From NCBI GenBank assembly GCA_965277715.1, contig OZ255836.1, positions 1,024,001-1,088,000 of the forward strand: a stretch of 64,000 nucleotides of DNA, written 5' to 3'. The DNA comes from Gammaproteobacteria bacterium. Lineage in GTDB: Bacteria; Pseudomonadota; Gammaproteobacteria; JBCCGL01. Positions 20,410 to 43,199 of this stretch are shown here, piece after piece. The translations under genes and the position numbers were made by a program. The notes below the pieces were generated by a model. The model ran no database searches. It was not told the origin of the DNA and saw only the letters and a program-made list of their open reading frames with translations. Position 1 is the stretch's first letter. The number at the start of each line of letters is the position of its first letter.

Positions 20410-20421
20410 ACGGAGAGCTCA

Positions 20422-27761: not shown

Positions 27762-27776
27762 TATGGAGGCTCGTAA

Positions 27777-30700
27777 ATGACTGACAACGACAATGTGAAT
27801 CCCGAACAAACCCCGCCGGTGACTTCGGGAAGATATAACAACGCATGGCTGGTGAGGTTCGGTGAGGCAGCCCGCTTGGATGGCTATGTCCTTACCATCG
27901 ACCTCGGCTCTTCCAGCTTGCGCGGTATCCAGACGGAAGACGCCATGCTGGTCACCGAAAAGCGTGACGGTCAGTACACCGTGATCGGTGTAGGTCGGGT
28001 ATTCAGGAAGCGCTACTCGCTGGAAGATACTTCATTCTATTTCGATGGTTATCTACCGGCAACACCGAACGCCACACTGGACGAACTGACCATTCCCGTA
28101 CCGGAAAACAAGGCACCGATCAACAGACTGGATTGGGCGCTGTTCGAGAAGGCCCTGAAAACGACCACTGGTGTTAGCTGGGCGGTATTCCCCGTGGTTT
28201 CGGGAGATTCATCCAGCGAACAGGCATACGTTCGGGAGTTGATGCAAGCGGCCATGATCGACGACCTTCTGGGACCCGCCGACGGCCCAGTCGAGGAGAT
28301 CATCGGTATGAGCGTTCGTGATCGCTATCTGGTCGGTAAGCTGGCTCCGCAAAATGCGGTCATTACCGAAGAGGACGAATTGCCCGGAGCCGGAGCCGAA
28401 GACGAGCAGGAAGGCACACGAGAGGTGGATGCCTCGACCAACCAGTCGCTTGTACCCTCGTCCTTGGGCTTCACGTTTTGCGTGGATTCCACGGTGGACA
28501 AGGTGGAACTTATCGCCAACTGGGGGCGCTACGAAAGGACGGAGAGCGAGCGGATCAACGAGGCCAACGACAAGCCTTTACGCTGCTGGAAGCGTATCCC
28601 GTCCGGCGGTTCTGTCATCATTCCTATGAACAAACGGAAAATCGAACCGCTCGTCATCGACAACCAGTGCCCGGAGGTTCTGGTGCAGGGCTCCATCAGC
28701 CCGCCTCTGGATAACGGAGATCGGCTGGTGACGCTGTTTTTCATCAACAACCAGTCCATGCCGGAACAGAATCAGGATCAGGCATGGGTTTTCCAACCGG
28801 AACTGATCGTCCGGGACCCGGAAAAACGCTCCATCTTCAGACGGCGACCGGTACTGGATTCCGATGGCGGTGATGCCGAGCGTGAAGCGTTGGAAATGAT
28901 TTACAGAAAACAGGTCGAGTTCGCGGTCGGTCACGGGGTATCCGTCCATGCGACCACGGCCGAAAACGATACGGAACACGCCGTCGAGATCAGAACTGCC
29001 ATTTTACCGGAATACGAAGTGCCGGTCACCGAAACGCCGGGGCTTGCAGAAGAAGACCGTCCGGGCATGAAGCGCATGATTGCCGAAGGGTTTCTCGACA
29101 TGGAAAACCTCGCGCAATTGGACAAAGAAGCCCTCGTCGCAGGATTGAAGATATTGACCGAGGATTACGCCCTCTGGATAACCGAACAACGGGAACGTAT
29201 CGGCAAGGATGTTCTCGGATACGACGGTGCCGCATCGGCGGCCATGGATCGTTGCGCACAGATCCTCTATCGTCTGGAAGAAGGTATAGGTTCTTTGGAA
29301 ACGAACGAGCACGCTCTCGAGGCTTTCCGTTTTGCCAACCGTGCCATGGCGTTGCAACGTATCCGCAGTATATACGCATTGAGCAAGAGGCGTGGTGACG
29401 ATCCTGACATCGATGACTTGAACGTTCGAAAGAACCGCTCGTGGAGACCGTTCCAGCTGGCCTTCATGCTACTGTCGTTGCCAGCCTTGGCCGATCCGGA
29501 GCACAAGGACAGAACCGAGCCGCTCGAAGCCTATGCCGACCTTCTCTGGTTTCCCACCGGTGGTGGTAAGACCGAGGCGTATCTGGGCGTGGCAGCCTTC
29601 ACCATGGCTATAAGAAGGTTGCAGGGTGATCTGGGCGGTCTGGATGGTACGTGCGGCCTCGCCGTGATCATGAGATACACCCTCCGCCTGTTGACCCTTC
29701 AGCAGTTTCAGCGTGCGACTACCCTGATCTGTGCCTTGGAATCGATGCGTCGTGAAGATCCCAAGAAATGGGGAAAGACTCCTTTCACCATCGGCCTCTG
29801 GGTCGGTAACCGGGTCACTCCCGGAAGCACAGAGGAAGCACATACGGCCATTCAGAGTTTCAGGAATGGGAAGCGTCACGGCAGCAATTCTCCGGCCCAG
29901 TTGACCACGTGTCCGTGGTGTGGTGCCGAGATTGCCGAAGGCCGGGACATCGAAGTGAAAAAGGATATCGGACGGACCTTCATCTATTGCGGCGACAAGT
30001 TCGGACGCTGTGATTTCGGCAGAAGCAAGTCCAAGGATATGGGAATCCCCGTTCTGGTGGTGGACGAAGAAATTTACAGACAACCTCCGACCATGTTGAT
30101 CGCCACGGTGGACAAGTTCGCCATGATGGCGTGGCGCGGACAGGTGCGAACGCTCTTTGGCCGGGCCACTCAGGAATGCGGCCGACATGGTCTACTCTGG
30201 CCCAATGCGGATTGTACCGGTAATCACAACGCCAAGGGCAGTCTTCCCAAGGTCACGGTGAAAGACATCACGCCGATTCGACCACCGGATCTAATCATTC
30301 AGGACGAGTTCCATCTCATCAGCGGCCCGCTGGGAACGATGGTCGGGCTTTACGAGACAGCCGTGGATGAACTCTCCACTTGGCAGGTCGGTGGTAAGTC
30401 GATCCGGCCCAAGGTCATCGCCTCGACGGCCACCGTGCGCAAGGCCGTCGAGCAGGTCAACAACGTGTTTTTGAGACAGGTGGCGGTCTTTCCACCCCAC
30501 GGGCTGGATGTGGAGGACAACTTCTTCTCGGTCCAGCGCCCTATCGAGGAAAGACCGGGCCGTCGATACATGGGGATCTGTTCCCCGGGAAGCTCGCGTC
30601 CGGCGGTATTGATTCGTGTCTACGTGGCTATGTTGACAGCCGCGCAGTCACTTTTCGAACGGTTCGGTCAGGTCGCAGACCCGTACATGACAGTTGTCGG

Positions 30701-31685
30701 CTATTTCAATTCACTGCGGGAACTCGGGGGCATGAGACGCCTTGCCGAGGATGACGTCCAGACCCGTGCCTACAGGGTGCAGATGAGCGATGTCAGCCGA
30801 CCGGGGCTGGAGCAGCGGTCGGTCAGGAACGTGGACGAGTTGACCTCCCGTGTGTCGAGCAAGGATATCCCTAAAAAACTGGATCAGCTGGAAGTGAAGT
30901 TCAACGCCACTCTGGAAAACGGTAAATACGTCACCAAGTGGGAAAAAGGTGAAACCCGTGCCATCGATATTGTTCTGGCCACCAACATGCTTTCGGTGGG
31001 TGTGGACGTGAATCGTCTGGGAATCATGGCCGTGAACGGTCAGCCGAAAAATACGGCGGAATACATTCAGGCAACGAGCCGTGTCGGGCGTCAGTTCCCG
31101 GGACTCGTTTGCACAGTGTTGACATGGTCCAGACCGCGTGACCTCTCGCACTACGAAACGTTCGAGCATTATCATGCCACCTTCTACAAGCACGTCGAGG
31201 CTCAATCGGTCACACCTTTCGCTCCGAGAGCGCTCGACCGTGGATTGACGGGTACGCTGGTCAGCCTAATGCGGCTGGGGCACGCCCCGTTAAACCCGAA
31301 CCTCGGGGCCATGGCACTCGACAACGTGGCTTCTCCCGAATTGAAAAGCGCCAAGGGGAGCCTCACCAACAGAGCCTGGAAAGCGACCAGCAAGAAGGTC
31401 ATCAAGGACAACGCCGAAGTGATGATTTCCGATCGCTCGGATCGTTGGGTGAAGGAAGCCGGGAAAGCCGGAAGGCGTTTGGGCTATGAAACCGAAAGAC
31501 GGCAAGGTGACGTGGCGGCACTGTTGAAAAAACCGGGCGTGGCCGCGTGGGACGAATTCACCGTGCCCATGTCGATGCGTGAAGTGGAACCAGGTGTGAA
31601 ACTGATTATGGATATTGCGACTCTGCCGGAGCCTCCGGCTTGGCGAATGAGAAGGACGGATGATAATGACGGAGGTGAAGCATGA
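27777..31685 (+). CDS. drmA: DISARM helicase DrmA with an extra N-terminal domain
   Basis: DLLGPADG, WRPFQLAF, FPTGGGKTEAY, RYTLRLLTLQQFQR, QDEFHL, QATSRVGR, SMREVE. Confidence 0.92.
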   Translation: MTDNDNVNPEQTPPVTSGRYNNAWLVRFGEAARLDGYVLTIDLGSSSLRGIQTEDAMLVTEKRDGQYTVIGVGRVFRKRYSLEDTSFYFDGYLPATPNATLDELTIPVPENKAPINRLDWALFEKALKTTTGVSWAVFPVVSGDSSSEQAYVRELMQAAMIDDLLGPADGPVEEIIGMSVRDRYLVGKLAPQNAVITEEDELPGAGAEDEQEGTREVDASTNQSLVPSSLGFTFCVDSTVDKVELIANWGRYERTESERINEANDKPLRCWKRIPSGGSVIIPMNKRKIEPLVIDNQCPEVLVQGSISPPLDNGDRLVTLFFINNQSMPEQNQDQAWVFQPELIVRDPEKRSIFRRRPVLDSDGGDAEREALEMIYRKQVEFAVGHGVSVHATTAENDTEHAVEIRTAILPEYEVPVTETPGLAEEDRPGMKRMIAEGFLDMENLAQLDKEALVAGLKILTEDYALWITEQRERIGKDVLGYDGAASAAMDRCAQILYRLEEGIGSLETNEHALEAFRFANRAMALQRIRSIYALSKRRGDDPDIDDLNVRKNRSWRPFQLAFMLLSLPALADPEHKDRTEPLEAYADLLWFPTGGGKTEAYLGVAAFTMAIRRLQGDLGGLDGTCGLAVIMRYTLRLLTLQQFQRATTLICALESMRREDPKKWGKTPFTIGLWVGNRVTPGSTEEAHTAIQSFRNGKRHGSNSPAQLTTCPWCGAEIAEGRDIEVKKDIGRTFIYCGDKFGRCDFGRSKSKDMGIPVLVVDEEIYRQPPTMLIATVDKFAMMAWRGQVRTLFGRATQECGRHGLLWPNADCTGNHNAKGSLPKVTVKDITPIRPPDLIIQDEFHLISGPLGTMVGLYETAVDELSTWQVGGKSIRPKVIASTATVRKAVEQVNNVFLRQVAVFPPHGLDVEDNFFSVQRPIEERPGRRYMGICSPGSSRPAVLIRVYVAMLTAAQSLFERFGQVADPYMTVVGYFNSLRELGGMRRLAEDDVQTRAYRVQMSDVSRPGLEQRSVRNVDELTSRVSSKDIPKKLDQLEVKFNATLENGKYVTKWEKGETRAIDIVLATNMLSVGVDVNRLGIMAVNGQPKNTAEYIQATSRVGRQFPGLVCTVLTWSRPRDLSHYETFEHYHATFYKHVEAQSVTPFAPRALDRGLTGTLVSLMRLGHAPLNPNLGAMALDNVASPELKSAKGSLTNRAWKATSKKVIKDNAEVMISDRSDRWVKEAGKAGRRLGYETERRQGDVAALLKKPGVAAWDEFTVPMSMREVEPGVKLIMDIATLPEPPAWRMRRTDDNDGGEA

Positions 31686-33568
31686 GTACTCATCCAGTTG
31701 GTGAAGTGAGGCCAAGCCAGCTGTTGTGGACCTATGGACCGGGTGCGTTGATCGACTTACCCAACCTGTCCGTGATCACTATGGGGTTGGATAGATGGGA
31801 TATCGACCGGTGTCCTCCCGTAGAGGAAGCCCGATTGCTGGCTGCCGTGCGTCGGGTGCTTGGTCCGCAGGTAACTCATCTGCGAATTCCACCATTCTTG
31901 AATGATGAAGGCGCGAGCCCGTTTTCCGCCGAAGGTAAGGTCGGCGTTCCGGTCAGACCGTTTCCACGTTGGCTTCGTTGTGTGAAGTGCGGCCTTCTGG
32001 CTGAATACGACTCCGGGCTGTTCAACATCAAGCCCAATCCGTACAGGCCTGAACTGACCCACTTCGTCCATACGAATTGCATCAAGGGTGCAAATGCCGA
32101 TGCCGTGCCAGCACGTTTTTTGCTGGCTTGCCGTAACGGTCATTTGGACGACTTCCCTTGGCACTGGTTCGTGCATGGCGGTCAGTCCGATTGCAGAGGA
32201 ACGCTCCGTTTCTTCGAGTCAGGGGCTTCGCTGCAGACCGAAAATCTCTGGGTCAAATGCGACGCTTGTGGTGCATCAAAACAGCTGGCGAAAGCCTTTG
32301 GTAAAAGCGGTCAGGAAAACCTCCCGGCTTGCCGGGGCCGCCATCCTCATCTCGACAAATTCGATGCGGATTGCAACGAGCAGCCTCGGGCGGTGCTTTT
32401 GGGTGCCACGAACAGCTGGTTTCCGATCACGCTTTCCGTGTTGGCCATCCCCCTAGAGAAAAACCAACTGTCCCAGTTAATTCTCGATGGATGGGACCAC
32501 TTTTACGAAGCTGAGTCTGTCGAGCAAATCAAGTGGATTGTAAAAACTCTATCCAAGACAAACAGTCTTCCCGGAATCGACAAATATGAGGCGGATGAAA
32601 TCTGGCTTGCGGTACAGGATCGAAAAGATGGAAACGCTGCCGAACTCGTTTCCGAAGGTGACATCAAGGGGCCAGAATGGGATGTATTGATATCCCCGAA
32701 TCCGCCGACGGACTGGCCGCACTTTTTGAGCAGCAAGGTTGCGAGACCGGAAACCTACAAGGATGTTCTGGAGTCGGTTCTCCTGCTCGAGCGCTTGAGA
32801 GAAGTGAACGCTTTGATTGGATATACCCGTGTGGAAGCTCCCGAGGAATCGGCTGACGAAGACGAGCGACCACCAATGGCCGACCTTTGTAAAGGGAGAC
32901 CCATCTGGATTCCTGCCGGTGAGGTCCATGGTGAAGGGATTTTTATCCGTTTCAACGAAAAGACCACTTCCGATTGGGAAAAGCTGGAAGCCGTCAAACG
33001 CAGGGACCAAAAAATCGAACAAGGTCACCGTGGGTGGAGAAACGCCCGTGGCCTCGACTCGGAAGTCGGCTATCCCGGAATCAGATATACCATGCTGCAC
33101 TCATTCGCCCACCTGTTGATCAGGGAGCTGGCACTGGAATGTGGTTACAACGCGGCAAGTATCCGGGAACGGATCTATGTCGGTACTGGTGAGTCACCTA
33201 TGGCTGGTGTTCTCATCTATACCGCCGCTGCAGATTCCGATGGAACGCTCGGTGGTCTGGTCGAACTTGGAAAACCCGAGAACCTCGGCCGTCTGATCGA
33301 ACAGGCGCTGAACAGGTCCATGGTATGTTCATCCGATCCTCTCTGCTCTGAACACAATCCAAGCGAAGACCGGTCACTCCATGCAGCCTCATGTCACGCC
33401 TGTACATTCGTTGCCGAAACATCCTGTGAAAGAGGCAACCGCTATCTGGACAGGGCATTGCTGGTGGAGACGTTCGAATGCAAGGATGCCGCATTTTTCA
33501 AAAAAGTGACCAAGGACTACTATTGCGTCGCTGAGGAACAAGCTCCATACGGATCGGCGGAGAAGTGA
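31682..33568 (+). CDS. drmB: DISARM DUF1998 protein DrmB
   Basis: VGEVRPSQLL..YGPG, GHLDDFPW, HSFAHLLI, GTLGGL, CSSDPLC..ASCHAC..ETSC. Confidence 0.92.
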   Translation: MSTHPVGEVRPSQLLWTYGPGALIDLPNLSVITMGLDRWDIDRCPPVEEARLLAAVRRVLGPQVTHLRIPPFLNDEGASPFSAEGKVGVPVRPFPRWLRCVKCGLLAEYDSGLFNIKPNPYRPELTHFVHTNCIKGANADAVPARFLLACRNGHLDDFPWHWFVHGGQSDCRGTLRFFESGASLQTENLWVKCDACGASKQLAKAFGKSGQENLPACRGRHPHLDKFDADCNEQPRAVLLGATNSWFPITLSVLAIPLEKNQLSQLILDGWDHFYEAESVEQIKWIVKTLSKTNSLPGIDKYEADEIWLAVQDRKDGNAAELVSEGDIKGPEWDVLISPNPPTDWPHFLSSKVARPETYKDVLESVLLLERLREVNALIGYTRVEAPEESADEDERPPMADLCKGRPIWIPAGEVHGEGIFIRFNEKTTSDWEKLEAVKRRDQKIEQGHRGWRNARGLDSEVGYPGIRYTMLHSFAHLLIRELALECGYNAASIRERIYVGTGESPMAGVLIYTAAADSDGTLGGLVELGKPENLGRLIEQALNRSMVCSSDPLCSEHNPSEDRSLHAASCHACTFVAETSCERGNRYLDRALLVETFECKDAAFFKKVTKDYYCVAEEQAPYGSAEK

Positions 33569-34341
33569 TGAATACCGATATCTGGCAAGTCATAGCTGAC
33601 ATCGGGATTGAACTTCATCCCGATCGGGTAAACGCTATAGCGGACAAGATAGCCGGTCTGTCTTCGGTGGACGAGTTTTGCAAGGCGAGTTCGGGATTCG
33701 GCCCGGCTGCCAACAAACCGATGATGAACGCACTGGAAAAGGCATGGAAGAAAGATCCCGGGGTTTCACCTCTAGAACTTGCTGCCGCTTTGCGTGGCGC
33801 ATCCGGAACGGCCTCGATCATGGAAAATCGGGAAGCGGTCGAAATGGTCTGGACAGGTCCCTTCACGGGGCTGGTCGCCTCCAGGCATACGGAACAGGTT
33901 TTACTCGAGGTGATAGGTTCCGCGAGATGGCGGCTCTTCATTATCAGCTTCGTCGCCTACAACATCGACTCGGTCAAGAAGGCACTGCAGGATGCTGTAG
34001 GTAGGAATGTCAAGATTGACATCTTACTGGAGTCGTCGAAGGCCCATGGTGGGAAGATCGATATCGACTTGATAGACGCTTTTAAAAAAGCGATACCTTC
34101 GGCCAACGTCTATGCGTGGAATTCAGAATCGAAATCCTCTGATCGCTGGAACGGAGCCGTCCATGCCAAATGCGCCGTTGCCGACGGCGCCCTCGCTTTC
34201 ATCACCAGCGCCAACCTCACCAGAGCGGCCATGGAAAACAACATGGAACTGGGAGTGCTGGTCCGTGGAGGCAATCTGCCGGAAAAACTCGAAAGGCATC
34301 TGGAAGCCTTGGTGACGACGGGAGTAATAGGGAAAATCTGA
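33565..34341 (+). CDS. drmC: DISARM phospholipase D-like nuclease DrmC
   Basis: VWTGP, HAKCAVAD (HKD motif), TSANLT..N.ELG. Confidence 0.9.
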   Translation: MMNTDIWQVIADIGIELHPDRVNAIADKIAGLSSVDEFCKASSGFGPAANKPMMNALEKAWKKDPGVSPLELAAALRGASGTASIMENREAVEMVWTGPFTGLVASRHTEQVLLEVIGSARWRLFIISFVAYNIDSVKKALQDAVGRNVKIDILLESSKAHGGKIDIDLIDAFKKAIPSANVYAWNSESKSSDRWNGAVHAKCAVADGALAFITSANLTRAAMENNMELGVLVRGGNLPEKLERHLEALVTTGVIGKI

Positions 34342-34769
34342 TGGATACAGTCGACACCAAAACCCGTTCCAAGATCATGAAAAGTGTCCCTCAGAAGGAC
34401 ACAAAGCCCGAAATGCGCCTCAGAAAAGCGCTGCATGGGATGGGGTTTCGGTATCGACTGCACGACAAAAGGTTACCCGGTTCTCCGGATCTGGTTTTTC
34501 CGAAATACAAGGCCGTCATCTTCGTGCATGGCTGTTTCTGGCACCGGCATGGCTGCAAGCAGACCACGACGCCTTCGACGCGTGAGGACTTCTGGAAGGC
34601 CAAATTCGAAGCCAGTGTCGAACGCGACAAAAAGAATGTCAGTGACCTCGAAACGGCTGGTTGGCGCGTGATGACCGTGTGGGAATGCGAACTGAAGAAA
34701 GCGGCTGAGAATGACCTTTTTGAAAAGATACGGGAGCTTTTGCTCTATCGAATGAACGAGACAACCTGA
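34341..34769 (+). CDS. vsr: Very short patch repair endonuclease
   Basis: MDTVD..TRSKIM..DTKPE, LPGSPD, FVHGCFWH, VWECE; the ATG overlaps the drmC stop. Confidence 0.92.
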   Translation: MDTVDTKTRSKIMKSVPQKDTKPEMRLRKALHGMGFRYRLHDKRLPGSPDLVFPKYKAVIFVHGCFWHRHGCKQTTTPSTREDFWKAKFEASVERDKKNVSDLETAGWRVMTVWECELKKAAENDLFEKIRELLLYRMNETT

Positions 34770-34778
34770 AATAAAGGA

Positions 34779-37328
34779 TCAACCATGACTGTAGATCTGT
34801 GAAATATTGTTGAGCTCCGCGCCATCACCCGACTTATCACCCATTTCCTGTTGAATCGCCAGAGACTGTTCCAAGTAGGCCAGCGCTGTTTCGTAATCAC
34901 TTAAGTGAAGATATTGCTTGCCAATCTGCCCCAAGGCAGTTGCTCTAATCTGGCGATTACTGGTTTTTAACAACGGTTGCAACCATTCTTCCAACAGCAC
35001 GGTATAGCGACCTGCACGATTTAGCGGCCCCACTACCCAGCGCAACACCAACTGATGCGCTTGATCATCCTGTTGCGCCACCGTCAATGCTTGATGGGTA
35101 GCCAAGCGGTGCTGCCAACTTCGGTTTAACCCTTCTTCTAATTGCCAACGTAAAAAGTCTGCGGCGGCACATAACCATACCCCCTTCGGTGGTTCTACAG
35201 CGTTTTTCGGCAGCCAGCTAAGCACTAATGGCGAGAGCAGGTATTCGGTTTGCCCACTGTCTGGGTTGTGGTATTGCTCCAGCAGTGAAACAGCCAGTAG
35301 CTTGTTTGTTAGCAGCAAAGCTTTTTGTGGATGGTAATCACTCTCAAATATACGCATCAACACTTTGATGCCTTCTATTGGCACCGGTGTTTGGTAAGCT
35401 TGCAGTGCGTGCAATAACGTCACTTCATCGTCGCTACGCTGCGCGACGACTTGTGCCAATGCCATATTGGTTTGTATTTCTGCCTCCGCTTGTTGCAGGC
35501 GGTTAAGAAAATTGTGCTCCTCGGTTATATCCATGCCTTTGATTGCGCGGGCGAAAAATTCCAATGCGCGAAAGTTACCCCCCAGCGTTTCATAGGCCTG
35601 GCGCATCCGCTTCGGCTCTAAGCACAGTTGCTGGTGACGGGCAAAGGTCAGGTAGTCGCCGTATACCGGACGCCCCAGGGCATAGTGTTGTGCATCCGGC
35701 CAATCCGGCAATCGCCAACGCGAGGTTAACAACAGTTTTAACCCTGGCGATTCAGCGCCTTGGCTAAGGCGGTAAGCGCTGTTGATCCAAAGCATTAGCG
35801 CTTCGTTTTGAAGTCCATGAGGTGATTCAGGCTGCTGTATCGATTCCAGGTTATCAAACAGTAGAACCAGTTTGGACTGGTGCGCACTCACCAGTTTGTT
35901 CAAAAATACTTCAATAGCATCGGCATCGTTAAGCCCGGCGTCTGTGTCTTTTTCTCCTTCCGTCAGTTTTTGCAACGAAGTGGCCATGCTCCCAATGGTT
36001 TGCCGCCAATCGTGCCCCGGGCGCAGTGAAAAAGTAAATAGGGTGTAGCCGTCTTTGCGCAGGGTATCTAACAGCTTGCCCGCCAGTGCAGTTTTACCGG
36101 TGCCGCCTGCACCGCTAATTAAGAGGGCGCGAATATCGCCCCGCCGCAGGCCGTTTTGCCATCGGCGCAATTCTCGACGGCGACCGATAAAGCGTCCCGG
36201 AACCGTAATGCCCCCCAGCATATTGACCAAAGCAGGTCGTTTTCGGGGTTTCGGGGTGAATCGCCAGTCGATTAGCTCTCGTTGATAGGCGTGGCTAAGC
36301 AATTGTGGCAGGCACCATTGACCATAGGAAAACGCTAACCGCTCCGGGCTGAGGCTGTCTTTGTATACACTGTCTTTTAACGGTTGGGTGATCGCCGCTC
36401 GTGCTGTTTGTAATGAGATTGCCACCGATTGTTGATTACCAATGCTCGCCAATAACGCCTTGGCGAATTGAATGCCGATTTTGTCAAAAACCGACTCGCG
36501 CATCCCAATAACGTGGGGAATGCCCGCTTGGTAAAATGCTTGGCTAAGCCCGTTTTCCGGGTAGTCCGGGTGTTGTCGGGCGCTTAAACAAGCCGATAAC
36601 ACCAGTAATTCCACACGCGTATTTTGAAAACAGCGAACCATATCTTCCTCAAAAACCTCCTGGTCCTCACCCCATTCGCCTTCAAACAAGAAACTGCCTT
36701 GGGCGTTTTGCTGGTGTAATTCGTGACGAAATAAACCGTGGCCACTGAGGTAGACGATATGGGGTTGGAAATCTTGCAGGCTTTGACGAAAGTGATCAAG
36801 GCGGCCATCGTCGGGCATTTCCAGCTCGATCAGCCCGGCTTGTTCAGCGGCCATTAATGCTTCTTGTACATCGGCCTGCTCAGCTTCTACATCCAGCCGT
36901 TGGCCCTCCTCTAAACCATCTGGCAGAGATGTAAATAAGAGCACGCGCAAAGGGCCAATCGCGCTATCTGGCAAGCCGATTTCCAGCGCTGGATTGTGCC
37001 GGGATAAGGTAAAGCCAGGCTCTCGCCCAACAAAACCATATTTCGGGTGATACAGGGCTTCCCACGGTAGGGACAACACCGCCGGATCGGCGGACTGAAC
37101 AATAATCGGCAAGGCCTGCTGGCCGCAGCGTTGTTTGGCTTTGCTTAATGCCTCGTCTTGTTGTAGAGCGTTGGCCAGCGCACTACCGATGTGACGCAGC
37201 ACGTCGTCGTCCACCACTTGTCGTTTTTCGTAGGCTTCACTTAAGCGTTTGGCCAGTGTTGTGAGCTCGGGGTGTTGGGCCAACCAATCCGCAGTCGGGG
37301 CAATAATTAAAGGTGCAGGTGCTGGCAT
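34779..37328 (-). CDS. CHAT (caspase-like) protease - STAND NTPase - TPR protein, TPR tail probably truncated
   Basis: LPWE, YLSGHG and VLSAC His/Cys dyad; FIGR, GAGGTGKT, LLFDNLE, LTSR; ends within a second TPR. Confidence 0.85.
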   Translation of the reverse strand: MPAPAPLIIAPTADWLAQHPELTTLAKRLSEAYEKRQVVDDDVLRHIGSALANALQQDEALSKAKQRCGQQALPIIVQSADPAVLSLPWEALYHPKYGFVGREPGFTLSRHNPALEIGLPDSAIGPLRVLLFTSLPDGLEEGQRLDVEAEQADVQEALMAAEQAGLIELEMPDDGRLDHFRQSLQDFQPHIVYLSGHGLFRHELHQQNAQGSFLFEGEWGEDQEVFEEDMVRCFQNTRVELLVLSACLSARQHPDYPENGLSQAFYQAGIPHVIGMRESVFDKIGIQFAKALLASIGNQQSVAISLQTARAAITQPLKDSVYKDSLSPERLAFSYGQWCLPQLLSHAYQRELIDWRFTPKPRKRPALVNMLGGITVPGRFIGRRRELRRWQNGLRRGDIRALLISGAGGTGKTALAGKLLDTLRKDGYTLFTFSLRPGHDWRQTIGSMATSLQKLTEGEKDTDAGLNDADAIEVFLNKLVSAHQSKLVLLFDNLESIQQPESPHGLQNEALMLWINSAYRLSQGAESPGLKLLLTSRWRLPDWPDAQHYALGRPVYGDYLTFARHQQLCLEPKRMRQAYETLGGNFRALEFFARAIKGMDITEEHNFLNRLQQAEAEIQTNMALAQVVAQRSDDEVTLLHALQAYQTPVPIEGIKVLMRIFESDYHPQKALLLTNKLLAVSLLEQYHNPDSGQTEYLLSPLVLSWLPKNAVEPPKGVWLCAAADFLRWQLEEGLNRSWQHRLATHQALTVAQQDDQAHQLVLRWVVGPLNRAGRYTVLLEEWLQPLLKTSNRQIRATALGQIGKQYLHLSDYETALAYLEQSLAIQQEMGDKSGDGAELNNISQIYSHG

Positions 37329-37352
37329 AGTATTCGTCCTTATCGGCGTGGG

Positions 37353-37619
37353 TTATTCTTCGTTGGAACCGCTCAGTGCATCGGGTAGTGTCAGTTCGAT
37401 AGGTGCTGTGTTATCGACACCACCTATTTGCCCTCCTCTGTAGGCAGTCATTTTATTCATCGCATAAACGCTTAGATCCACATTAAACCGACAATCACAA
37501 TACGGGCATCTAACAGAAATGTTGGGATCATCGTCCGCGTCCAATAGGCTGGGATAACGAAATTTAAAATGATCTTTACACTGCTTACAATGTGTGGTTC
37601 GTAGAACGTAATGTTGCAT
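37353..37619 (-). CDS. Small Zn-ribbon protein
   Basis: CKQC...CPYC; AAGGA RBS; 12 nt and 24 nt from its neighbours. Confidence 0.75.
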   Translation of the reverse strand: MQHYVLRTTHCKQCKDHFKFRYPSLLDADDDPNISVRCPYCDCRFNVDLSVYAMNKMTAYRGGQIGGVDNTAPIELTLPDALSGSNEE

Positions 37620-37631
37620 GGATATATTCCT

Positions 37632-38099
37632 TTAAATAAAAATACTCAGCACCGCTAAAACGATGCCGAAGAAACTGCTGATACAAGCCCAAACCAGGTA
37701 TTTAAGCTTAGCGCTGGCGGAATCACTAAAGTAACGCTGAATCGCCAAGAGATCGTCAGGGTCGACTTCTCGCTTTTGCGGTAGCAAACAGGCTAAGGAG
37801 AGGCCAAGCGCGAGTAACCAGAGTACAAAGGAAACGCCGATTGAGGTTACATTGCCAATCGCTTGATCACCGCCACTCAGCAGTTTTAAAACCGCCGCGT
37901 AGACGCCCGGTACGGCGATATTCAGGGTAATCAGTTGTTTAGCCAAATCATCCATTCGGTTGGCTTGCGCAGCCACATCGCTGGCGAAGCATTCCAGTAG
38001 TTTTTCGTCTACTTTACTGAGTGGCATTCCCTCAGCTTGATAAACCGGTGGATCGTTATCCGCAGGGCTATCCTGATTGGCGGGGTTATCCTCGGTCAT
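37632..38099 (-). CDS. 3-TM membrane protein
   Basis: Three hydrophobic helices; AGGA RBS; first gene of the operon. Confidence 0.75.
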   Translation of the reverse strand: MTEDNPANQDSPADNDPPVYQAEGMPLSKVDEKLLECFASDVAAQANRMDDLAKQLITLNIAVPGVYAAVLKLLSGGDQAIGNVTSIGVSFVLWLLALGLSLACLLPQKREVDPDDLLAIQRYFSDSASAKLKYLVWACISSFFGIVLAVLSIFI

Positions 38100-38391
38100 T
38101 ATTCGTGTTCCTAGTGATTAATACCTTTATTAAAAAAGCAATGCCATTATTTGCTGGAACAGCATGTAAGAAATTTGTAAAGCTATCGGTTTGGCTATCT
38201 CGATTGGTTTTGTTGTATAAAACATCACCCTATTATGTTTTTAATTATAGAAAACGCCCATCAATAATCAATAACGGCCTTTTTCACCCCCGTAAAAAAG
38301 GAAGAGACGATCAAACCATGTATCCACTCGCTAAATTGATCGCCGCGCTTTCGCGCCTATTTGGTAGTAGCGATTGCCTTGAATGTGCTAT

Positions 38392-38453
38392 CTACATCGC
38401 CTCAACAGCCAACGCAATGCCCTGCCCACCGCCAATGCACATTGTGGCAATAC
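38392..38453 (-). repeat. Orphan duplicate of the thiolase 3' end, continuing at 40061-40070 beyond the IS
   Basis: CATCGCCTCAACAGCCAACGCAATGCCCTGCCC.CCGCCAATGCACATTGTGGCAAT matches 40827-40883. Confidence 0.9.
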
Positions 38454-38523
38454 CCCTGTGTGTCAACCTCACCTCAAGCCAATATGATTTAAGTTAACAT
38501 CTAAATCAGGGCAGCTATCGAGA

Positions 38524-38946
38524 GTGAGAACAATGCCAAAACCAATGTTAGATAAACCACAACCTGAGTCATGTGAGATCAAGCCTGATCGGACACTTGA
38601 GAAAAAGACTCGCCGCACTTTTACAGCAGCCTATAAGCTAAAGATGATCAATCAAGCTGATGCTTGCCAGCATGGACAGCTTGGCGCTTTGCTACGCCGT
38701 GAGAAGCTTTACTCCAATCAATTGTCTCAGTGGCGAAGAGAACTGGCCGAAGGCGGTTTGTCAGGGCTATCAAAAAGTGCGCCCGGCCCTGCACCGCAAA
38801 TGACGTCTGAGCAGCGCCGGATAGCGCAGCTTGAAAAACAAGTAAACCGTCTGGAAAAACAAATCGTCCTTAAGGATGACTGTCTGGAACTCCAAAAAAA
38901 AGCCTTGGCGATGCTCGACCGATTGAACAGCGGGATCGAGCAGTGA
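38524..38946 (+). CDS. IS3-family transposase OrfA
   Basis: RRTFTAAYKL..GALLRREKLYS..WR HTH. A -1 shift at the A8G run (38894-38902) reads openly into OrfB. Confidence 0.85.
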   Translation: MRTMPKPMLDKPQPESCEIKPDRTLEKKTRRTFTAAYKLKMINQADACQHGQLGALLRREKLYSNQLSQWRRELAEGGLSGLSKSAPGPAPQMTSEQRRIAQLEKQVNRLEKQIVLKDDCLELQKKALAMLDRLNSGIEQ

Positions 38947-40022
38947 ATACCGCGTTGACTGACCGCCCACCCTCAGTGTCCCAACGTCTGGCTTGTAAGG
39001 TATTGGCATTGTCACGGTCACACGTCCGGGCCAAGCAAAGCCGCCGCCATTTCTGTGGCCCTCCCAAACCAGCAGGAACCGTGCGAATCACTTGCCATCA
39101 GCCACGCCAACTGAGTGAAGAAGAATGCTCTGTGGTATTGAATACGCTCAATAGTGAAGCGTTCTATGATCAACCACCGGCGCAGGTTTACCATACCTTG
39201 CTGAGTCGCCGTATTTACCTCTGCTCCATCAGCACCATGCACCGCCTGCTGCGTCAGTCCGATCAGTCGGGGGAACGCCGAAAACAGCGTCCTGGGCAAA
39301 CCAACGCAGTGCCAAGGCTTTCGGCCAGTCAGCCTAATGAGGTCTGGACATGGGATATTACAAAATTGGCCACCGTTAAGCGCGGCGTTTATTTATCGCT
39401 CTATGTGGTGATGGATTTATTCAGTCGCTACATCGTGGCCTGGATGCTTTCCCATAAAGAAAACAGTGCACTGGCACAGCAGCTCATTCAGGAGGCCAGT
39501 ACACGTTACGCGATTAGACCCAACCAGCTGACGCTGCATCAGGATCGAGGGGCACCGATGACCGCACATTGCTACCTTGACTTACTGGGCGAGTTGGCGG
39601 TCACCGCTAGCCACAGCAGACCCCGCGTGAGTAATGACAATCCTCATAGTGAAAGCCAATTTCGAACACTGAAGTATCAGCCTGACTACCCGCGTCGCTT
39701 TGATAGCTATAGCCATGCCAATGGATGGTGCACTGAGTATATTGATTGGTATAACCATCAGCACTGTCACAGTGCGTTGGAGGGCTTCACACCTTGTCAG
39801 GTGTTTACTGGGCAGTACATACCACTCAGTGAGGTTCGTCAGCAGGCACTCAATGAAAAGTATGTCCAACATGCAGAGCGATTTGTCAATCAGCGGCCTG
39901 TTGTCAGGATGCCGCCTGCGAAGGTCTACATTAATCCCGTGCGCGATGAACTGGGTAATATAGATCACGATGCACCCGTCAACTTCCCAACACTAAATCG
40001 GGCTAAATATATGGTAACTTGA
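38943..40022 (+). CDS. IS3-family transposase OrfB (DDE/rve)
   Basis: WTWDIT, DLFSR, HQDRG, NDNPHSES, WYN..H.HS. Confidence 0.9.
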   Translation: MNTALTDRPPSVSQRLACKVLALSRSHVRAKQSRRHFCGPPKPAGTVRITCHQPRQLSEEECSVVLNTLNSEAFYDQPPAQVYHTLLSRRIYLCSISTMHRLLRQSDQSGERRKQRPGQTNAVPRLSASQPNEVWTWDITKLATVKRGVYLSLYVVMDLFSRYIVAWMLSHKENSALAQQLIQEASTRYAIRPNQLTLHQDRGAPMTAHCYLDLLGELAVTASHSRPRVSNDNPHSESQFRTLKYQPDYPRRFDSYSHANGWCTEYIDWYNHQHCHSALEGFTPCQVFTGQYIPLSEVRQQALNEKYVQHAERFVNQRPVVRMPPAKVYINPVRDELGNIDHDAPVNFPTLNRAKYMVT

Positions 40023-40107
40023 GTAACTGTGGCTTGAAACAGGTTGACACCTTCCGATACCATAATGCTTAGTTGAGCTATTGTAGCCTATCGGCTACAA
40101 TAACCCT

Positions 40108-40413
40108 ATGGAATATGAAGTCGCTTCCACAGCCATTTTTAAAAAATGGCTAAAAAGCCTAAGAGACCGGCAGGCCGTTAGGGCTATTGCAATGCGTATC
40201 ACACGTGCCGAAACAGGTAACATGGGTGATGTGAGCAGCGTGGGTGGTGGTGTCAGTGAAATGCGAATTTTTGTAGGCAAAGGGTATCGGCTGTATTTTA
40301 CGATTCGCAAGCAAAAATTGATCATATTGCTGAACGGCGGCGATAAATCCAGCCGACAACAAGACATTGATCACGCAAAAAAATTGGTGGCGCAACTATT
40401 AGAGGTTAGGTAA
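40108..40413 (+). CDS. RelE/ParE-superfamily toxin (addiction module killer type)
   Basis: FKKWLKSLRD, GNMGD..VGGGVSEMRI..GKGYRLYF, GGDKS..Q..DI. Confidence 0.88.
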   Translation: MEYEVASTAIFKKWLKSLRDRQAVRAIAMRITRAETGNMGDVSSVGGGVSEMRIFVGKGYRLYFTIRKQKLIILLNGGDKSSRQQDIDHAKKLVAQLLEVR

Positions 40414-40694
40414 TGGCAATTAAAACGACAGCGTTTAATCCGGTTGATTTTTTTGAATCACCAGAAGAGATATCAGATTATCTGAACGACGCTTACCAAG
40501 ATGCAGACCCTGCTGTGTTTGTGGTGGCGCTGGGACATGTTGTGCGCTACAAGGGGGTTGCAACACTAGCTGAAAAGACTGGTTTAAATCGTGAAAGTTT
40601 GTATAAGGTGTTCAGCGGCAAAGCTCAGCCCAAGTGGGATACGCTTCACCGTTTACTGCACGCACTAGACGTGCGGGTAACGCTGGCAGTGTAG
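40413..40694 (+). CDS. Addiction module antidote (HTH antitoxin)
   Basis: ALGHVVR..G..LAEKTGLNRESLYK..S..P; overlaps the toxin stop. Confidence 0.88.
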   Translation: MAIKTTAFNPVDFFESPEEISDYLNDAYQDADPAVFVVALGHVVRYKGVATLAEKTGLNRESLYKVFSGKAQPKWDTLHRLLHALDVRVTLAV

Positions 40695-40820: not shown

Positions 40821-42014
40821 CTACTCCATCGCCTCAACAGCCAACGCAATGCCCTGCCCGCCGCCAATGCACATTGTGGCAATCCCATAACGCTTACCCG
40901 TGCGCCGCAGTTCGTGCAGCAGCTTCACGGTAATCACCGCCCCTGTCGCGCCTATCGGGTGCCCCAGAGCAACCGCACCACCGTTTGGATTGACTTTCTC
41001 AGCCGGTAAGCCCAAAGCTTTACTCACGGCACATGCCTGCGCGGCAAACGCTTCGTTGGATTCGACAATATCAATATCGGCAACGCTAAGCCCCGTGCGT
41101 TGCAGCAATAACTGCACAGCCGGTACCGGACCAATCCCCATTTCAGACGGTTCCACCCCGGCGTGCGCATAGCCAAGAATACGCGCCATAGGTTGACAAC
41201 CACGCTGTTCTGCCAGTGCACGATCCATCAACACCAACGCCGCAGCACCATCATTCAGGCCAGAGGCATTGCCCGCCGTCACAGTGCCGTTTTCTTTTTG
41301 AAAGGCCGGGCGCAACTTTACCAAGTCATCGATAGTCGCGTTTTCACGCACATGCTCGTCTTGTTTGAACACACTCACCTGGCCACGGCGTTTCAGCTCC
41401 ACCGGCATAATTTGTGTTTCAAACCAACCTTGCTGGATGGCATTAGCCGCCCGGCGGTGACTTTCCAGCGCAAACTCATCCTGCTGTTCCCGGCTAATAC
41501 CCCATTTTTTCGCCACATTTTCAGCGGTGATCCCCATATGCCCATGGCCAAAGGGGTCGTGCAGGGCCGCCATCATCATATCCACGGCAGTACTATCGCC
41601 GAGACGTTGGCCCCAACGCATAGCCGGTAACAAATGGCCTGCTCGGCTCATGTTCTCGGCGCCACCGGCAAGTGCCACTTTTGCATCACCGAGCATAATC
41701 GCCTGCGCAGCGGAGACAATCGCCTGAATACCGCTCCCACACAAACGATTAACCGTTAGCGCGGGCGTCTCTTTGGGAATGCCTGCATTGATTGCTGCAA
41801 CGCGTGAGATATACATATCACGCGCCTCGGTGTGGATCACATTACCCAATACCACATGGCCCACGGCTTCAGGCTCTACTTCTGCGCGTTTTAATGCCTC
41901 ACTACACACCAATTGTCCCAACTCACAAGGTGATTTGTCTTTCAGGCTACCACCAAAACCGCCCACCGCCGTGCGTACGCCATTGACAATTACCACTTCA
42001 TTAATGCTGGACAT
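40821..42014 (-). CDS. Acetyl-CoA C-acyltransferase (beta-ketothiolase, BktB-like)
   Basis: NRLCGSG, NEAFA, GHPIGATG, CIGGGQG. Confidence 0.93.
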   Translation of the reverse strand: MSSINEVVIVNGVRTAVGGFGGSLKDKSPCELGQLVCSEALKRAEVEPEAVGHVVLGNVIHTEARDMYISRVAAINAGIPKETPALTVNRLCGSGIQAIVSAAQAIMLGDAKVALAGGAENMSRAGHLLPAMRWGQRLGDSTAVDMMMAALHDPFGHGHMGITAENVAKKWGISREQQDEFALESHRRAANAIQQGWFETQIMPVELKRRGQVSVFKQDEHVRENATIDDLVKLRPAFQKENGTVTAGNASGLNDGAAALVLMDRALAEQRGCQPMARILGYAHAGVEPSEMGIGPVPAVQLLLQRTGLSVADIDIVESNEAFAAQACAVSKALGLPAEKVNPNGGAVALGHPIGATGAVITVKLLHELRRTGKRYGIATMCIGGGQGIALAVEAME

Positions 42015-42905: not shown

Positions 42906-43199
42906 GCAAATCTTTAGATCTAAATCATGTAGCGAGATCCACTTAAATAGCAAGCAAGTGATAAAACCTCATTTGCTAAATTATTAATTAGGCAAATATA
43001 GGCATGTCGTCACTTGAAACACAGAGTCTAGTACCTGGCGTTGAGAAATTATTCAGAGGTATACTTAACCCATCTTTGACACTCATTCTTAAAAATTTAA
43101 ATTACAACAATGAGTTAAATTTTTTTGTTCAGTCAATTAACATTTGTACCACCCTCCCAGGTTTGTTGATATTTCCAACCCATCACTCTCGCAACGGGC

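What the first reader, a model, noticed from the sequence alone, without database searches (positions are those of the whole stretch)
34779..38099. Candidate NLR-like protease system: 3-TM protein + Zn-ribbon protein + CHAT-STAND-TPR
Seen: three co-oriented genes 12 and 24 nt apart, downstream of an AT-rich leader and tail-to-tail with DISARM. The large gene fuses a CHAT protease with an intact dyad (SGHG, SAC) to a STAND NTPase (FIGR, GAGGTGKT, FDNLE, TSR) and TPRs. Known: STAND-TPR proteins act as immune sensors (Avs, bacterial NLRs), and caspase-like proteases cleave co-encoded partners (bacterial gasdermins, Csx29/Csx30). Inference: sensor-triggered proteolysis of the small partner activates a membrane effector. 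I do not recognise this trio as a named system.
Basis: partly seen in the sequence, partly recalled or inferred. Interest (0 to 1): 0.8.

Follow-up and report, generated by a model that had tools for sequence, protein, structure and literature searches.

The report
Truncated three-gene CHAT-NLR protease cassette
This is a copy, with its sensor end cut off, of a widespread but unnamed three-gene bacterial cassette (small membrane protein, zinc-ribbon protein, caspase-like protease fused to an NLR-type switch) that probably works as a cell-suicide immune system.

Summary
Three co-oriented minus-strand genes, 12 and 24 nt apart, encode a 155-aa three-TM protein, an 88-aa four-Cys zinc-ribbon protein and an 849-aa CHAT–STAND NTPase–TPR protein with intact His/Cys, Walker A/B and TSR motifs. 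They lie tail-to-tail with Vsr and a complete DISARM.

Of 58 homologous CHAT genes in metagenome contigs with enough upstream DNA, 45 have both small genes directly upstream and 5 more have them directly downstream. All 6 zinc-ribbon matches in five genomes abut a CHAT-STAND gene. The zinc-ribbon family has 744 representative clusters.

No PADLOC, Pfam or NCBIfam model names the trio, and five full-text searches aimed at it found no description.

The window copy is broken. It stops inside the first 40-aa TPR unit, 10 nt from vsr, and lacks at least 130 aa (homologue median 1170 aa). Near-identical strains carry the gene cut elsewhere, at about residue 611.

The mechanism is inferred only: an NLR-like sensor switches on the protease, which cleaves a partner and releases a membrane effector. 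The membrane protein's likeness to PycTM is weak.

Verdict: a new variant of a known kind, probably inactive in this genome.

The parts
37632..38099 (-). Gene 1: a 155-aa membrane protein with an acidic cytosolic N-terminal helix and three hydrophobic segments. It founds a family of roughly 135-170-aa proteins.
   Evidence: Translation; hydropathy. It has 27 homologues. In the 65-sequence alignment Q45, W94 and K131 are invariant. PADLOC PycTM scores E 0.015 for this protein, and 29 of 65 relatives hit the same model at E<=1, best 4.2e-5. There is no Pfam hit.
37353..37619 (-). Gene 2: an 88-aa C4 zinc-ribbon protein (C11, C14, C38, C41). It has a basic residue after the ribbon (R61) and a C-terminal LTLPDAL motif.
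   Evidence: Translation. The four Cys are invariant in 70 of 70 relatives. R or K at alignment column 81 occurs in 66 of 70, and Pro at column 107 in 64 of 69. Generic Zn_ribbon_8 hits occur in 18 of 70 relatives. The profile finds 744 representative clusters at E<=1e-3.
34779..37328 (-). Gene 3: an 849-aa CHAT protease - STAND NTPase - helical domain - first TPR unit, truncated at the 3' end.
   Evidence: Translation; Pfam. Homologues cover 100% of it and have a median length of 1170 aa. Its alignment to a 972-aa homologue ends at residue 846 of 849, with 132 aa of the homologue left over.
36264..37187 (-). CHAT (caspase-like) domain, residues 48-355, with H197 and C247.
   Evidence: Pfam PF12770 E 5.5e-32. 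SGHG and SAC are invariant in 22 homologues. His and Cys align with those of PDB chain 8tl0_A, a CHAT domain-containing protein.
35718..36194 (-). STAND-type P-loop NTPase core, residues 379-537: Walker A GGTGKT, Walker B DNLE and TSR.
   Evidence: AAA_16 E 4.2e-10, above its cut-off; NACHT 23.2 bits, below its cut-off of 26.7. Invariant residues are listed.
34791..34943 (-). The only remaining TPR unit, residues 796-846.
   Evidence: TPR_12 and TPR_1 hits are below their cut-offs. This unit matches every repeat of full-length homologues in tblastn.
34770..34790 (.). Truncation junction. Homology to full-length relatives ends at 34788-34791. The ORF stops three codons later (stop codon 34779-34781). 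The vsr stop is at 34769.
38244..38271 (-). Promoter-like site (TTGATT, 16 nt, TATAAT) about 145 nt upstream of gene 1, inside the A+T-rich leader.
   Evidence: The number of such sites in the region is no higher than in shuffles, so this is only a candidate.

Best explanation
The locus is a 3'-truncated copy of a conserved, self-contained three-gene cassette found in Thiothrix and other Gammaproteobacteria, Desulfobacteraceae, Chlorobi-type and Chloroflexi-type organisms.

Shown:
- The three genes travel together.
- The large protein has an intact caspase-like His/Cys dyad and STAND NTPase motifs.
- In relatives the large protein ends in an array of near-identical 40-aa TPR units plus a conserved cap.

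Inferred, by analogy with Avs/NLR proteins and with bacterial gasdermin systems:
- The TPR array binds a trigger, such as a phage or foreign protein.
- NTP-dependent oligomerisation then switches on the CHAT protease.
- The protease cleaves a cassette partner. The best candidate is the zinc-ribbon protein, at its conserved R/K after the ribbon or at its C-terminal [LY]x[LF]P[DE][VI][LI]PT motif. The alternative is the cytosolic N-terminus of the membrane protein.
- Cleavage frees the three-TM protein to damage the membrane and stop the infected cell.

In this window the sensor array and cap are missing. They are cut off 10 nt from the vsr gene that trails a DISARM island, so the copy is most likely a non-functional relic.

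Confidence in parts: conserved cassette and truncation about 0.9; conflict or immune role about 0.6; the specific protease-to-membrane-effector mechanism about 0.35.
For: Linkage:
- A genome scan with the TM family returned 8 loci. Seven have TM, then a roughly 90-aa 2xCxxC gene, then a CHAT-STAND gene; the eighth is a 38-aa fragment.
- A metagenome scan with the CHAT-STAND family returned 80 loci with 78 CHAT gene starts. Of the 72 with at least 330 nt upstream, 59 have the Zn gene directly upstream.
- Of the 58 with at least 900 nt upstream, 45 have both small genes upstream. Five more carry TM and Zn directly downstream.
- Six of 6 Zn-profile matches in five genomes lie immediately upstream of a CHAT-STAND match.
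- Median spacers are 18 nt (TM to Zn, n=47) and 31 nt (Zn to CHAT, n=54).
- Identity matrices of the three proteins correlate at r 0.79-0.80 over 38 loci (Mantel p 0.001).

Anatomy:
- The catalytic and NTPase motifs are invariant.
- The CHAT dyad aligns with a solved CHAT protein.
- About 29 loci have 120-nt tandem TPR units or multiples of that period, 71-94% identical at the DNA level.
- 29 of 65 TM proteins give weak hits to the PADLOC PycTM model (best 4.2e-5), and a few hit CBASS 2TM effector models.

Context:
- The window copy sits beside DISARM, Vsr, an IS3-type element and an addiction-module gene.
- Flanks in 10 other loci include 2 integrases, RelE, Fic and a SLATT_1 gene among 20 neighbours.

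Truncation. An independent cut at about residue 611 in near-identical strains is shown.
Against: - Nothing here tests proteolysis, binding, toxicity or phage protection.
- The PycTM likeness is weak. P0003 scores E 0.015, and none of 65 relatives hits Pfam PycTM (PF18967) at E<=0.01.
- hhalign against a SLATT_1 protein was negative (probability 0.2), and the TM family has no solved relative.
- Neighbours in other loci are mostly housekeeping or unknown. Ten of 20 have no Pfam hit, so a defence-island setting is not general.
- The cassette is rare. The TM family was found in 3 of 400 sampled Gammaproteobacteria and 4 of 401 sampled genomes of the other phylum. It was not found in the plasmid or phage collections.
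- One genome keeps the TM gene and a Zn remnant with no CHAT-STAND gene found.
- No fused forms link the Zn ribbon to either partner.
- The terminal acidic residues of the Zn protein may partly reflect the ribosome-binding site of the next gene. This is my reading.
Confidence: 0.5

Rival explanations
1. The membrane and zinc-ribbon proteins are not effectors. They form an anchor or sensor module that tethers or licenses the CHAT-STAND protein at the membrane, as Kaur et al. proposed for EACC1. The killing step is proteolysis of cellular or phage proteins by the CHAT domain itself.
For: - Kaur et al. 2020 (PMC7159879, section 33, passages read) describe a membrane-associated two-gene system. 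Its small TM protein sits 5' of a caspase-fused protein and is predicted to act as a membrane sensor.
- The TM protein is small, with no enzymatic or pore-forming family match.
- A more distant CHAT-STAND gene (30% identity, L014) has a Zn-ribbon gene upstream but no TM gene in the 1.2 kb available.
- L091 has the Zn gene only.
Against: - The TM family gives repeated weak hits to PycTM/2TM effector models, not to anchors.
- TM and Zn stay adjacent even when their position relative to the CHAT gene is permuted.
- Neither small protein matches an EACC1 model at E<=0.1.
- The TM protein has three hydrophobic segments, not one.
Confidence: 0.25
2. The cassette is not antiviral. It serves regulated cell death, kin discrimination or developmental signalling in filamentous or multicellular bacteria. 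The zinc-ribbon protein would be a cleavable regulator, comparable to Csx30 or an anti-sigma factor.
For: - Source names of homologues are dominated by filamentous or consortium-forming groups: Thiothrix, Thiofilum, Desulfobacteraceae, Anaerolineales and Chlorobium.
- Highly regular, near-identical TPR units resemble allorecognition NLRs, as noted for fungal NLRs in PMC10907252 (passage).
- Zinc ribbons often bind nucleic acid or polymerase; PDB hits include RNA polymerase subunit P and Elf1.
- Flanking genes are mostly not defence genes.
Against: - No sigma factor or transcription factor is conserved in the cassette.
- The window copy lies in a clear defence and mobile-element neighbourhood.
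- The domain logic matches proven antiphage STAND proteins (10.64898/2026.01.04.697583, passages).
Confidence: 0.15
3. The truncated window copy is still active. A sensor-less CHAT-STAND would be constitutive or re-wired, held in check by the two small proteins and working like a toxin-antitoxin module.
For: - All three ORFs are open, and the catalytic and NTPase motifs are intact.
- Among the differences from near-identical strains that one search listed, 3 of 3 in the TM gene and 6 of 9 changed codons in the CHAT gene are synonymous. This fits recent purifying selection.
Against: - Only the rows shown were counted; 16 further rows were not shown, and the numbers are tiny.
- 111 of 120 homologues are 900 aa or longer, so truncated forms are not the norm.
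- A second, different truncation in sister strains points to decay.
- By my recollection, loss of the sensor domain inactivates or deregulates STAND proteins; I read no paper on this here.
Confidence: 0.07

Closest known systems
Bacterial gasdermin systems (bGSDM plus a caspase-like protease, e.g. Runella bCasp with CHAT-like, NTPase and repeat domains)
   Same: A caspase-like CHAT protease fused to an NTPase and a repeat sensor is encoded next to a small membrane-active protein. There, proteolysis releases the membrane activity (PMC13475620, passages read).
   Different: No gasdermin is present; neither small protein matches any gasdermin family. The membrane partner is a 3-TM integral protein that ends in a TM helix, so it has no C-terminal inhibitory peptide. 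A third, zinc-ribbon gene is conserved. The repeats are TPR, not LRR.
EACC1-caspase two-gene membrane-associated conflict system (Kaur et al. 2020, eLife, System 4)
   Same: A small membrane protein gene is coupled to a gene with an N-terminal caspase-superfamily domain. That domain can be followed by STAND NTPases and superstructure-forming repeats. The system was reported as enriched in multicellular bacteria (PMC7159879, passages).
   Different: [quoted passage not shown] Here the TM protein has three hydrophobic segments. The protein directly upstream of the CHAT gene is a soluble zinc ribbon with no hydrophobic stretch (maximum 15-aa hydropathy 0.45). The paper's source data were not seen.
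Avs / antiviral STAND and bacterial NLR-related proteins
   Same: The tripartite logic is the same: an N-terminal effector, a central STAND NTPase and a C-terminal TPR-like sensor. Caspase-like N-terminal domains are noted in some bacterial STANDs (10.64898/2026.01.04.697583, passages).
   Different: There is no significant match to any Avs or bNACHT model in PADLOC; the best is PDC-S73 at E 0.023. Avs proteins are described as single-gene systems, whereas this one has two conserved accessory genes. The supplementary tables of that preprint, which list 589 STAND clades, could not be read.
Pycsar effector PycTM
   Same: There is a weak, repeated profile likeness over the TM1-TM2 hairpin. PycTM is the transmembrane effector of Pycsar (PMC13069673, passages).
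   Different: No cyclase gene and no cyclic-nucleotide-binding domain are present. E-values are marginal for the window protein, and Pfam's PycTM family is not hit.
Type III-E Craspase (Csx29 TPR-CHAT with Csx30/Csx31) and type III-B SAVED-CHAT
   Same: A CHAT protease is activated by a sensor and cleaves a small co-encoded protein (abstracts listed). The nearest solved CHAT by sequence is 8tl0_A.
   Different: There is no CRISPR effector, no SAVED domain and no cOA signalling. The domain order is CHAT-NTPase-TPR, and a STAND NTPase acts as the switch.

Membership tests
CHAT / caspase-like clan CD peptidase (Pfam PF12770) | Profile match above the curated cut-off | tested here: met
   111.8 bits against a cut-off of 24, residues 48-355.
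CHAT / caspase-like clan CD peptidase (Pfam PF12770) | Catalytic His and Cys present and conserved | tested here: met
   H197 (SGHG) and C247 (SAC) are invariant in 22 homologues. They align with GHG and AC of 8tl0_A.
STAND NTPase | Walker A, Walker B and a conserved Arg after the core (TSR), followed by helical domains and a repeat sensor | tested here: met
   GGxGKT 408-413, DNLE 492-495 and TSR 535-537 are invariant. AAA_16 scores above its cut-off. TPR arrays are present in homologues.
NACHT subfamily (Pfam PF05729) | Profile match above the curated cut-off | tested here: not met
   23.2 bits against a cut-off of 26.7. It is therefore called STAND / AAA_16-type here, not NACHT.
Avs / bNACHT / other named PADLOC systems | Significant match of any of the three proteins to a system model | tested here: not met
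   The best hits are TPR 4.1e-4, PDC-S73 0.023, PDC-M14A 0.0049 and PycTM 0.015. DefenseFinder was not available.
Bacterial gasdermin system | A gasdermin-fold gene next to the protease | tested here: not met
   There is no gasdermin family among the Pfam hits of P0002 or P0003 at E<=0.1.
EACC1-caspase system | A 5' gene encoding a single-TM EACC1 domain | tested here: not met
   The TM protein has three hydrophobic segments, and the zinc-ribbon protein has none. One search returned no EACC1 hit. That Pfam holds an EACC1 model is my recollection.
Pycsar | PycTM effector profile match | tested here: inconclusive
   P0003 scores E 0.015. 29 of 65 relatives match PDLC02364 at E<=1, best 4.2e-5. 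None of 65 hits the Pfam family at E<=0.01.
Pycsar | Adjacent pyrimidine cyclase | tested here: not met
   The genes flanking the trio are Vsr/DISARM on one side and an IS3-type transposase on the other. No conserved fourth gene appears in related loci.
Zinc ribbon | Two CxxC knuckles with conserved spacing | tested here: met
   The four Cys are invariant in 70 of 70. The spacing is 19 residues in 45 sequences, 23 in 12 and 24 in 5. Zn_ribbon_8 is hit by 18 of 70. Metal binding itself cannot be tested here.
DISARM (neighbour, not part of the finding) | DrmA, DrmB, DrmC plus DrmD/DrmMI or DrmMII | tested here: met
   All six proteins match their PADLOC models, with E from 0 to 4.9e-78.

The most novel reading that the evidence does not exclude
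The trio is a gasdermin-independent, protease-gated death switch. An NLR-like CHAT protease cleaves a zinc-ribbon 'safety pin', at its conserved basic residue or at the LPxxLPT tail. This releases a new family of three-TM, PycTM-like membrane-disrupting proteins. The sensor would be an array of near-identical 40-aa TPR units that diversifies by repeat recombination. That would amount to a third route to pyroptosis-like immunity in bacteria, alongside gasdermins and cyclic-nucleotide-gated TM effectors.
Probability: 0.25. Interest if true: 0.8.

Novelty: new variant of a known kind. Interest (0 to 1): 0.6.

Why it matters
STAND/NLR proteins with caspase-like heads are a known theme, and protease-activated membrane killers are known from gasdermin systems. 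This case adds two small protein families with no dedicated family model in Pfam, NCBIfam or PADLOC. One is a 3-TM protein. The other is a C4 zinc ribbon with a conserved C-terminal peptide motif. Both are almost always encoded with one large CHAT-STAND-TPR family across several phyla.

If the protease acts on these partners, the cassette offers a compact, testable model of how a bacterial NLR couples sensing to membrane damage without gasdermin or nucleotide signals. The zinc-ribbon protein would be a new kind of adaptor or substrate.

The near-identical tandem TPR units give a handle on how such sensors diversify.

For this particular genome the locus matters less. It is a decayed copy. It shows that the 3' repeat end of the gene is a breakpoint where other islands, here DISARM plus vsr, abut.

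Tried and rejected
- Word-based homologue search for the 88-aa protein found only itself. The family was recovered from neighbouring ORFs and profiles instead.
- No whole genome is held for the window.
- Atlas search of P0002 gave only unnamed small-protein clusters and generic zinc-finger leads.
- Pfam and NCBIfam scans of the family alignments gave only generic zinc-ribbon names and no TM family.
- hhalign of the TM family against the SLATT_1 protein of L005 was negative.
- PDB sequence search of the TM family gave nothing useful.
- Rfam found no credible RNA in 34500-38700 (one chance-level hit, E 0.59). The leader folds no better than shuffles, z 0.76.
- No flanking direct or inverted repeats mark the DISARM island ends.
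- Synteny with G288 is limited to the trio and purL lying within about 5-20 kb of each other. I treat this as weak.
- No match was found in plasmids, phages or viral contigs.
- No RNA holder was listed for the stretch.
- The sponge-metagenome contigs give no cover over DISARM at 90% likeness. This is not used as evidence.
- A treekit tree was killed by the sandbox. A FastTree tree replaced it. It shows that most permuted-order loci fall in one clade that also holds tandem CHAT-TM-Zn-CHAT arrangements.
- Fused forms of the Zn ribbon were considered and rejected. The long hits are multi-stretch Cys-rich proteins. P0232 is a Zn ribbon followed by hydrophobic sequence of unclear meaning.
- Literature: seven full-text searches in all; the five aimed at the trio found no description of it. 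The source data of PMC7159879 and the STAND-clade tables of 10.64898/2026.01.04.697583 may list it.

Full report
**What is there.** On the minus strand lie three ORFs: 38099..37632 (155 aa), 37619..37353 (88 aa) and 37328..34779 (849 aa). They are separated by 12 and 24 nt.

The large protein matches Pfam CHAT (E 5.5e-32, residues 48-355) and AAA_16 (E 4.2e-10, residues 379-498). NACHT and TPR families fall below their curated cut-offs. In an alignment of 22 homologues the His of SGHG, the Cys of SAC, GGxGKT, DNLE and TSR are invariant. The dyad aligns with that of the solved CHAT protein 8tl0_A.

The 155-aa protein has an acidic N-terminal region and three hydrophobic segments, at 56-75, 84-107 and 134-155. 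The 88-aa protein has two CxxC pairs and no hydrophobic stretch.

The leader upstream of gene 1 is A+T-rich. It holds one promoter-like site, 38271-38244, although such sites are no more frequent here than in shuffles. No Rfam family matches it and it has no unusual fold.

Downstream, tail-to-tail, lie Vsr (34341-34769) and a complete DISARM: DrmMII, DrmD, DrmMI, DrmA, DrmB and DrmC at 19315-34341.

**The window copy is cut short.**
- The 120 listed homologues cover 73-100% of the query (nearly all 96-100%). Their median length is 1170 aa, and 111 of 120 are 900 aa or longer.
- The shortest clearly complete relative examined has 972 aa. It aligns up to window residue 846 and then continues for 132 aa.
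- The family consensus continues with further 40-aa TPR units and a conserved C-terminal cap.
- tblastn with four full-length relatives finds no such remnant elsewhere in the 64 kb.
- Homology ends at 34788-34791, the ORF stops three codons later, and the vsr stop codon is 10 nt away.

Contigs of near-identical strains from two other studies were laid on the window. They cover 35495-38295 and then run on for 5.6 kb with unrelated sequence. This matches a 623-aa database protein that is 98% identical up to about residue 611. The same gene has therefore been broken at two different places in close relatives.

Among the differences that one search listed, 3 of 3 in the TM gene are synonymous. In the CHAT gene 6 of 9 changed codons are synonymous, with one codon deletion besides. 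A further 16 rows were not shown, so the truncations look recent but the numbers are small.

Those contigs also join 38295 directly to 40152. So the IS3-type element (about 38454-40056 by depth; transposase ORFs 38524-40022) and a 68-nt duplicate of the thiolase 3' end are an insertion specific to the window's genome.

- The TM protein has 27 homologues of 103-153 aa.
- A scan of one genome per species with their alignment returned 8 loci. Seven show TM, then a roughly 81-98-aa double-CxxC ORF, then a CHAT-STAND gene. The eighth holds only a 38-aa fragment.
- In 400 sampled Gammaproteobacteria the TM family occurs in 3 genomes, and all three carry the trio.
- In 401 sampled genomes of the phylum of G003 it occurs in 4. 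One carries the trio plus a divergent TM gene next to the 3' end of a TPR gene. One has TM and a Zn remnant followed by a VapC-like PIN gene (my reading of the ORF; not scanned), with no CHAT-STAND found using P0001. Two have divergent TM genes whose partners are unclear.
- In the reverse direction, a metagenome scan with the CHAT-STAND alignment gave 80 loci and 78 CHAT gene starts.
- Of the 72 starts with at least 330 nt upstream, 59 have the Zn gene directly upstream. Of the 58 with at least 900 nt upstream, 47 have the TM gene and 45 have both.
- Of the 13 exceptions, five have TM and Zn directly downstream: L025, the first gene of L026, L028, L029 and L065.
- Three have the genes with a wider gap, an inserted ORF or an inverted TM gene: L045, L062 and L033. 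L091 has only the Zn gene.
- L050, L069, L087 and L098 have neither small gene. L069 and L098 are preceded by another long ORF.
- The Zn profile finds 6 matches in five genomes, and all 6 lie immediately upstream of a CHAT-STAND match. One of these partners is only 30% identical to the window protein.
- Spacers are short: median 18 nt between TM and Zn, and 31 nt between Zn and CHAT.
- The pairwise-identity matrices of the three proteins correlate at r 0.79-0.80 over 38 loci (Mantel p 0.001). This shows co-inheritance, not binding.

**The three families.**

The zinc-ribbon family is large. It has 744 representative clusters at E<=1e-3 and 188 at E<=1e-10. Almost all are stand-alone proteins of 63-109 aa. 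The long hits are multi-stretch Cys-rich proteins, not fusions.

Across 70 members the four Cys are invariant. A basic residue follows the ribbon in 66 of 70. About 30 residues later comes a motif [LY]x[LF]P[DE][VI][LI]PT, with Pro in 64 of 69 and Thr in 53 of 69, followed by a tail of mostly 6-9 residues. Family libraries give only generic zinc-ribbon names.

The TM family (65 sequences) has Q45, W94 and K131 invariant. No Pfam family fits it, and it has no solved relative. Even so, 29 of 65 members give weak hits to one PADLOC PycTM model (best 4.2e-5), 6 hit a second PycTM model and 5 hit CBASS 2TM effector models. A profile comparison with a SLATT_1 protein was negative.

In about 29 loci the TPR region of the large gene is a tandem array of 120-nt units, or multiples of that period, 71-94% identical at the DNA level. 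The window gene stops at the end of the first unit.

**How it most likely works.**

Shown:
- The three genes form a conserved cassette.
- The protease and NTPase motifs are intact.
- A repeat sensor is present in relatives.
- The sensor is absent in the window copy.

Inferred:
- The TPR array recognises a trigger.
- The STAND module oligomerises and activates the CHAT protease.
- The protease cuts a cassette partner, and the three-TM protein then damages the membrane.

I favour the zinc-ribbon protein as substrate or adaptor for three reasons:
- It is the partner most strictly tied to the CHAT gene.
- It evolves fastest, with a mean identity of 33%, against 46% for TM and 51% for CHAT.
- It carries two conserved short linear features outside its fold.

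With the N-terminus in the cytoplasm, the TM protein's conserved N-terminal helix and its TM2-TM3 loop would both face the cytoplasm. This rests on the positive-inside reading, and it means the TM protein could also be cut or bound.

The rivals are set out with their evidence in the rival explanations:
- The small proteins act as anchor or sensor.
- The cassette has a non-antiviral role in cell death or kin recognition.
- The truncated copy retains a residual toxin-antitoxin-like activity.

**Comparison with known systems.**
- The nearest working analogue is the bacterial gasdermin system. Its protease can carry CHAT-like, NTPase and repeat domains (PMC13475620, passages). No gasdermin is present here.
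- The nearest described genomic theme is the EACC1-caspase two-gene system of Kaur et al. 2020 (PMC7159879, section 33 passages). Its defining single-TM EACC1 protein is not what is found here.
- Avs and NLR-related proteins share the effector-NTPase-TPR logic (10.64898/2026.01.04.697583, passages). No PADLOC model matches.
- Craspase and SAVED-CHAT share only the CHAT protease idea (abstracts).
- Pycsar shares at most a distant TM module (PMC13069673, passages).
- I therefore class the cassette as a new variant of a known kind. In the five searches aimed at it it is undescribed as a trio.

**Limits.** DefenseFinder was not available. The cassette was not found on plasmids, in phages or in viral contigs. 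Flanking genes in ten other loci are a mix of housekeeping, unknown and mobile or toxin-antitoxin genes. The defence reading thus rests mainly on domain logic and on this window's neighbourhood.

Noticed in passing
window 19315-34769: This is a complete DISARM carrying both methylases, DrmMII (C5) and DrmMI, with DrmD, DrmA, DrmB and DrmC, followed by a Vsr mismatch endonuclease. A small ORF at about 19100-19316 reads by eye like an excisionase/AlpA-type HTH protein. No flanking repeats were found.
   Followed up: partly
window 38296-40151: An IS3-type element (orfA 38524-38946, orfB rve 38943-40022) has multi-copy depth over 38454-40056. Together with short flanks it is skipped in contigs of near-identical strains, which join 38295 directly to 40152. 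It is therefore a recent insertion upstream of the cassette.
   Followed up: partly
window 38388-38455 and 40821-40887: A 68-nt stretch, 94% identical to the 3' end of the intact thiolase gene (40821-42014, minus strand), is duplicated next to the IS left end. It encodes the last roughly 20 residues of a thiolase.
   Followed up: partly
window 40095-40694 and 43137-43628: An addiction-module antidote gene (dnstrm_HI1420 family, 40413-40694) lies beside a small unexamined ORF. A 163-aa protein carries only the N-terminal SAM-like domain of a phage integrase. Both point to a mobile, rearranged neighbourhood.
   Followed up: no
L005 3111-3554: In a Desulfobacteraceae MAG a DUF4231/SLATT_1 two-TM effector gene sits directly upstream of the trio. 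It is not related to the cassette's own TM family by hhalign.
   Followed up: partly
L028 170-4971: One metagenomic variant of the large protein (1393 aa) starts with a ParA/MinD-like KGGVGR P-loop module ahead of the CHAT domain. It is preceded by a gene whose start reads like a TIR domain. Both readings are by eye and were not scanned.
   Followed up: no
L026 1427-8339: This is a tandem arrangement, CHAT-STAND-TPR, TM, Zn, then a second CHAT-STAND-TPR (1024 and 1026 aa). It may explain the loci where TM and Zn follow the large gene instead of preceding it.
   Followed up: partly
L108 2544-4001 (genome G722): An orphan TM gene plus a zinc-ribbon remnant is followed by a VapB/VapC-like pair where the CHAT-STAND gene would be. 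No CHAT-STAND match was found in that genome with P0001.
   Followed up: partly
L033 8063-10329: A 159-nt tandem repeat of 14.3 copies at 95% identity lies downstream of the cassette. Its nature is unknown.
   Followed up: no
L018 16861-18000 and window 11738-15640: purL lies a few kb downstream of the cassette in genome G288 and about 19 kb downstream in the window, in the same orientation. The genes in between are unrelated.
   Followed up: partly
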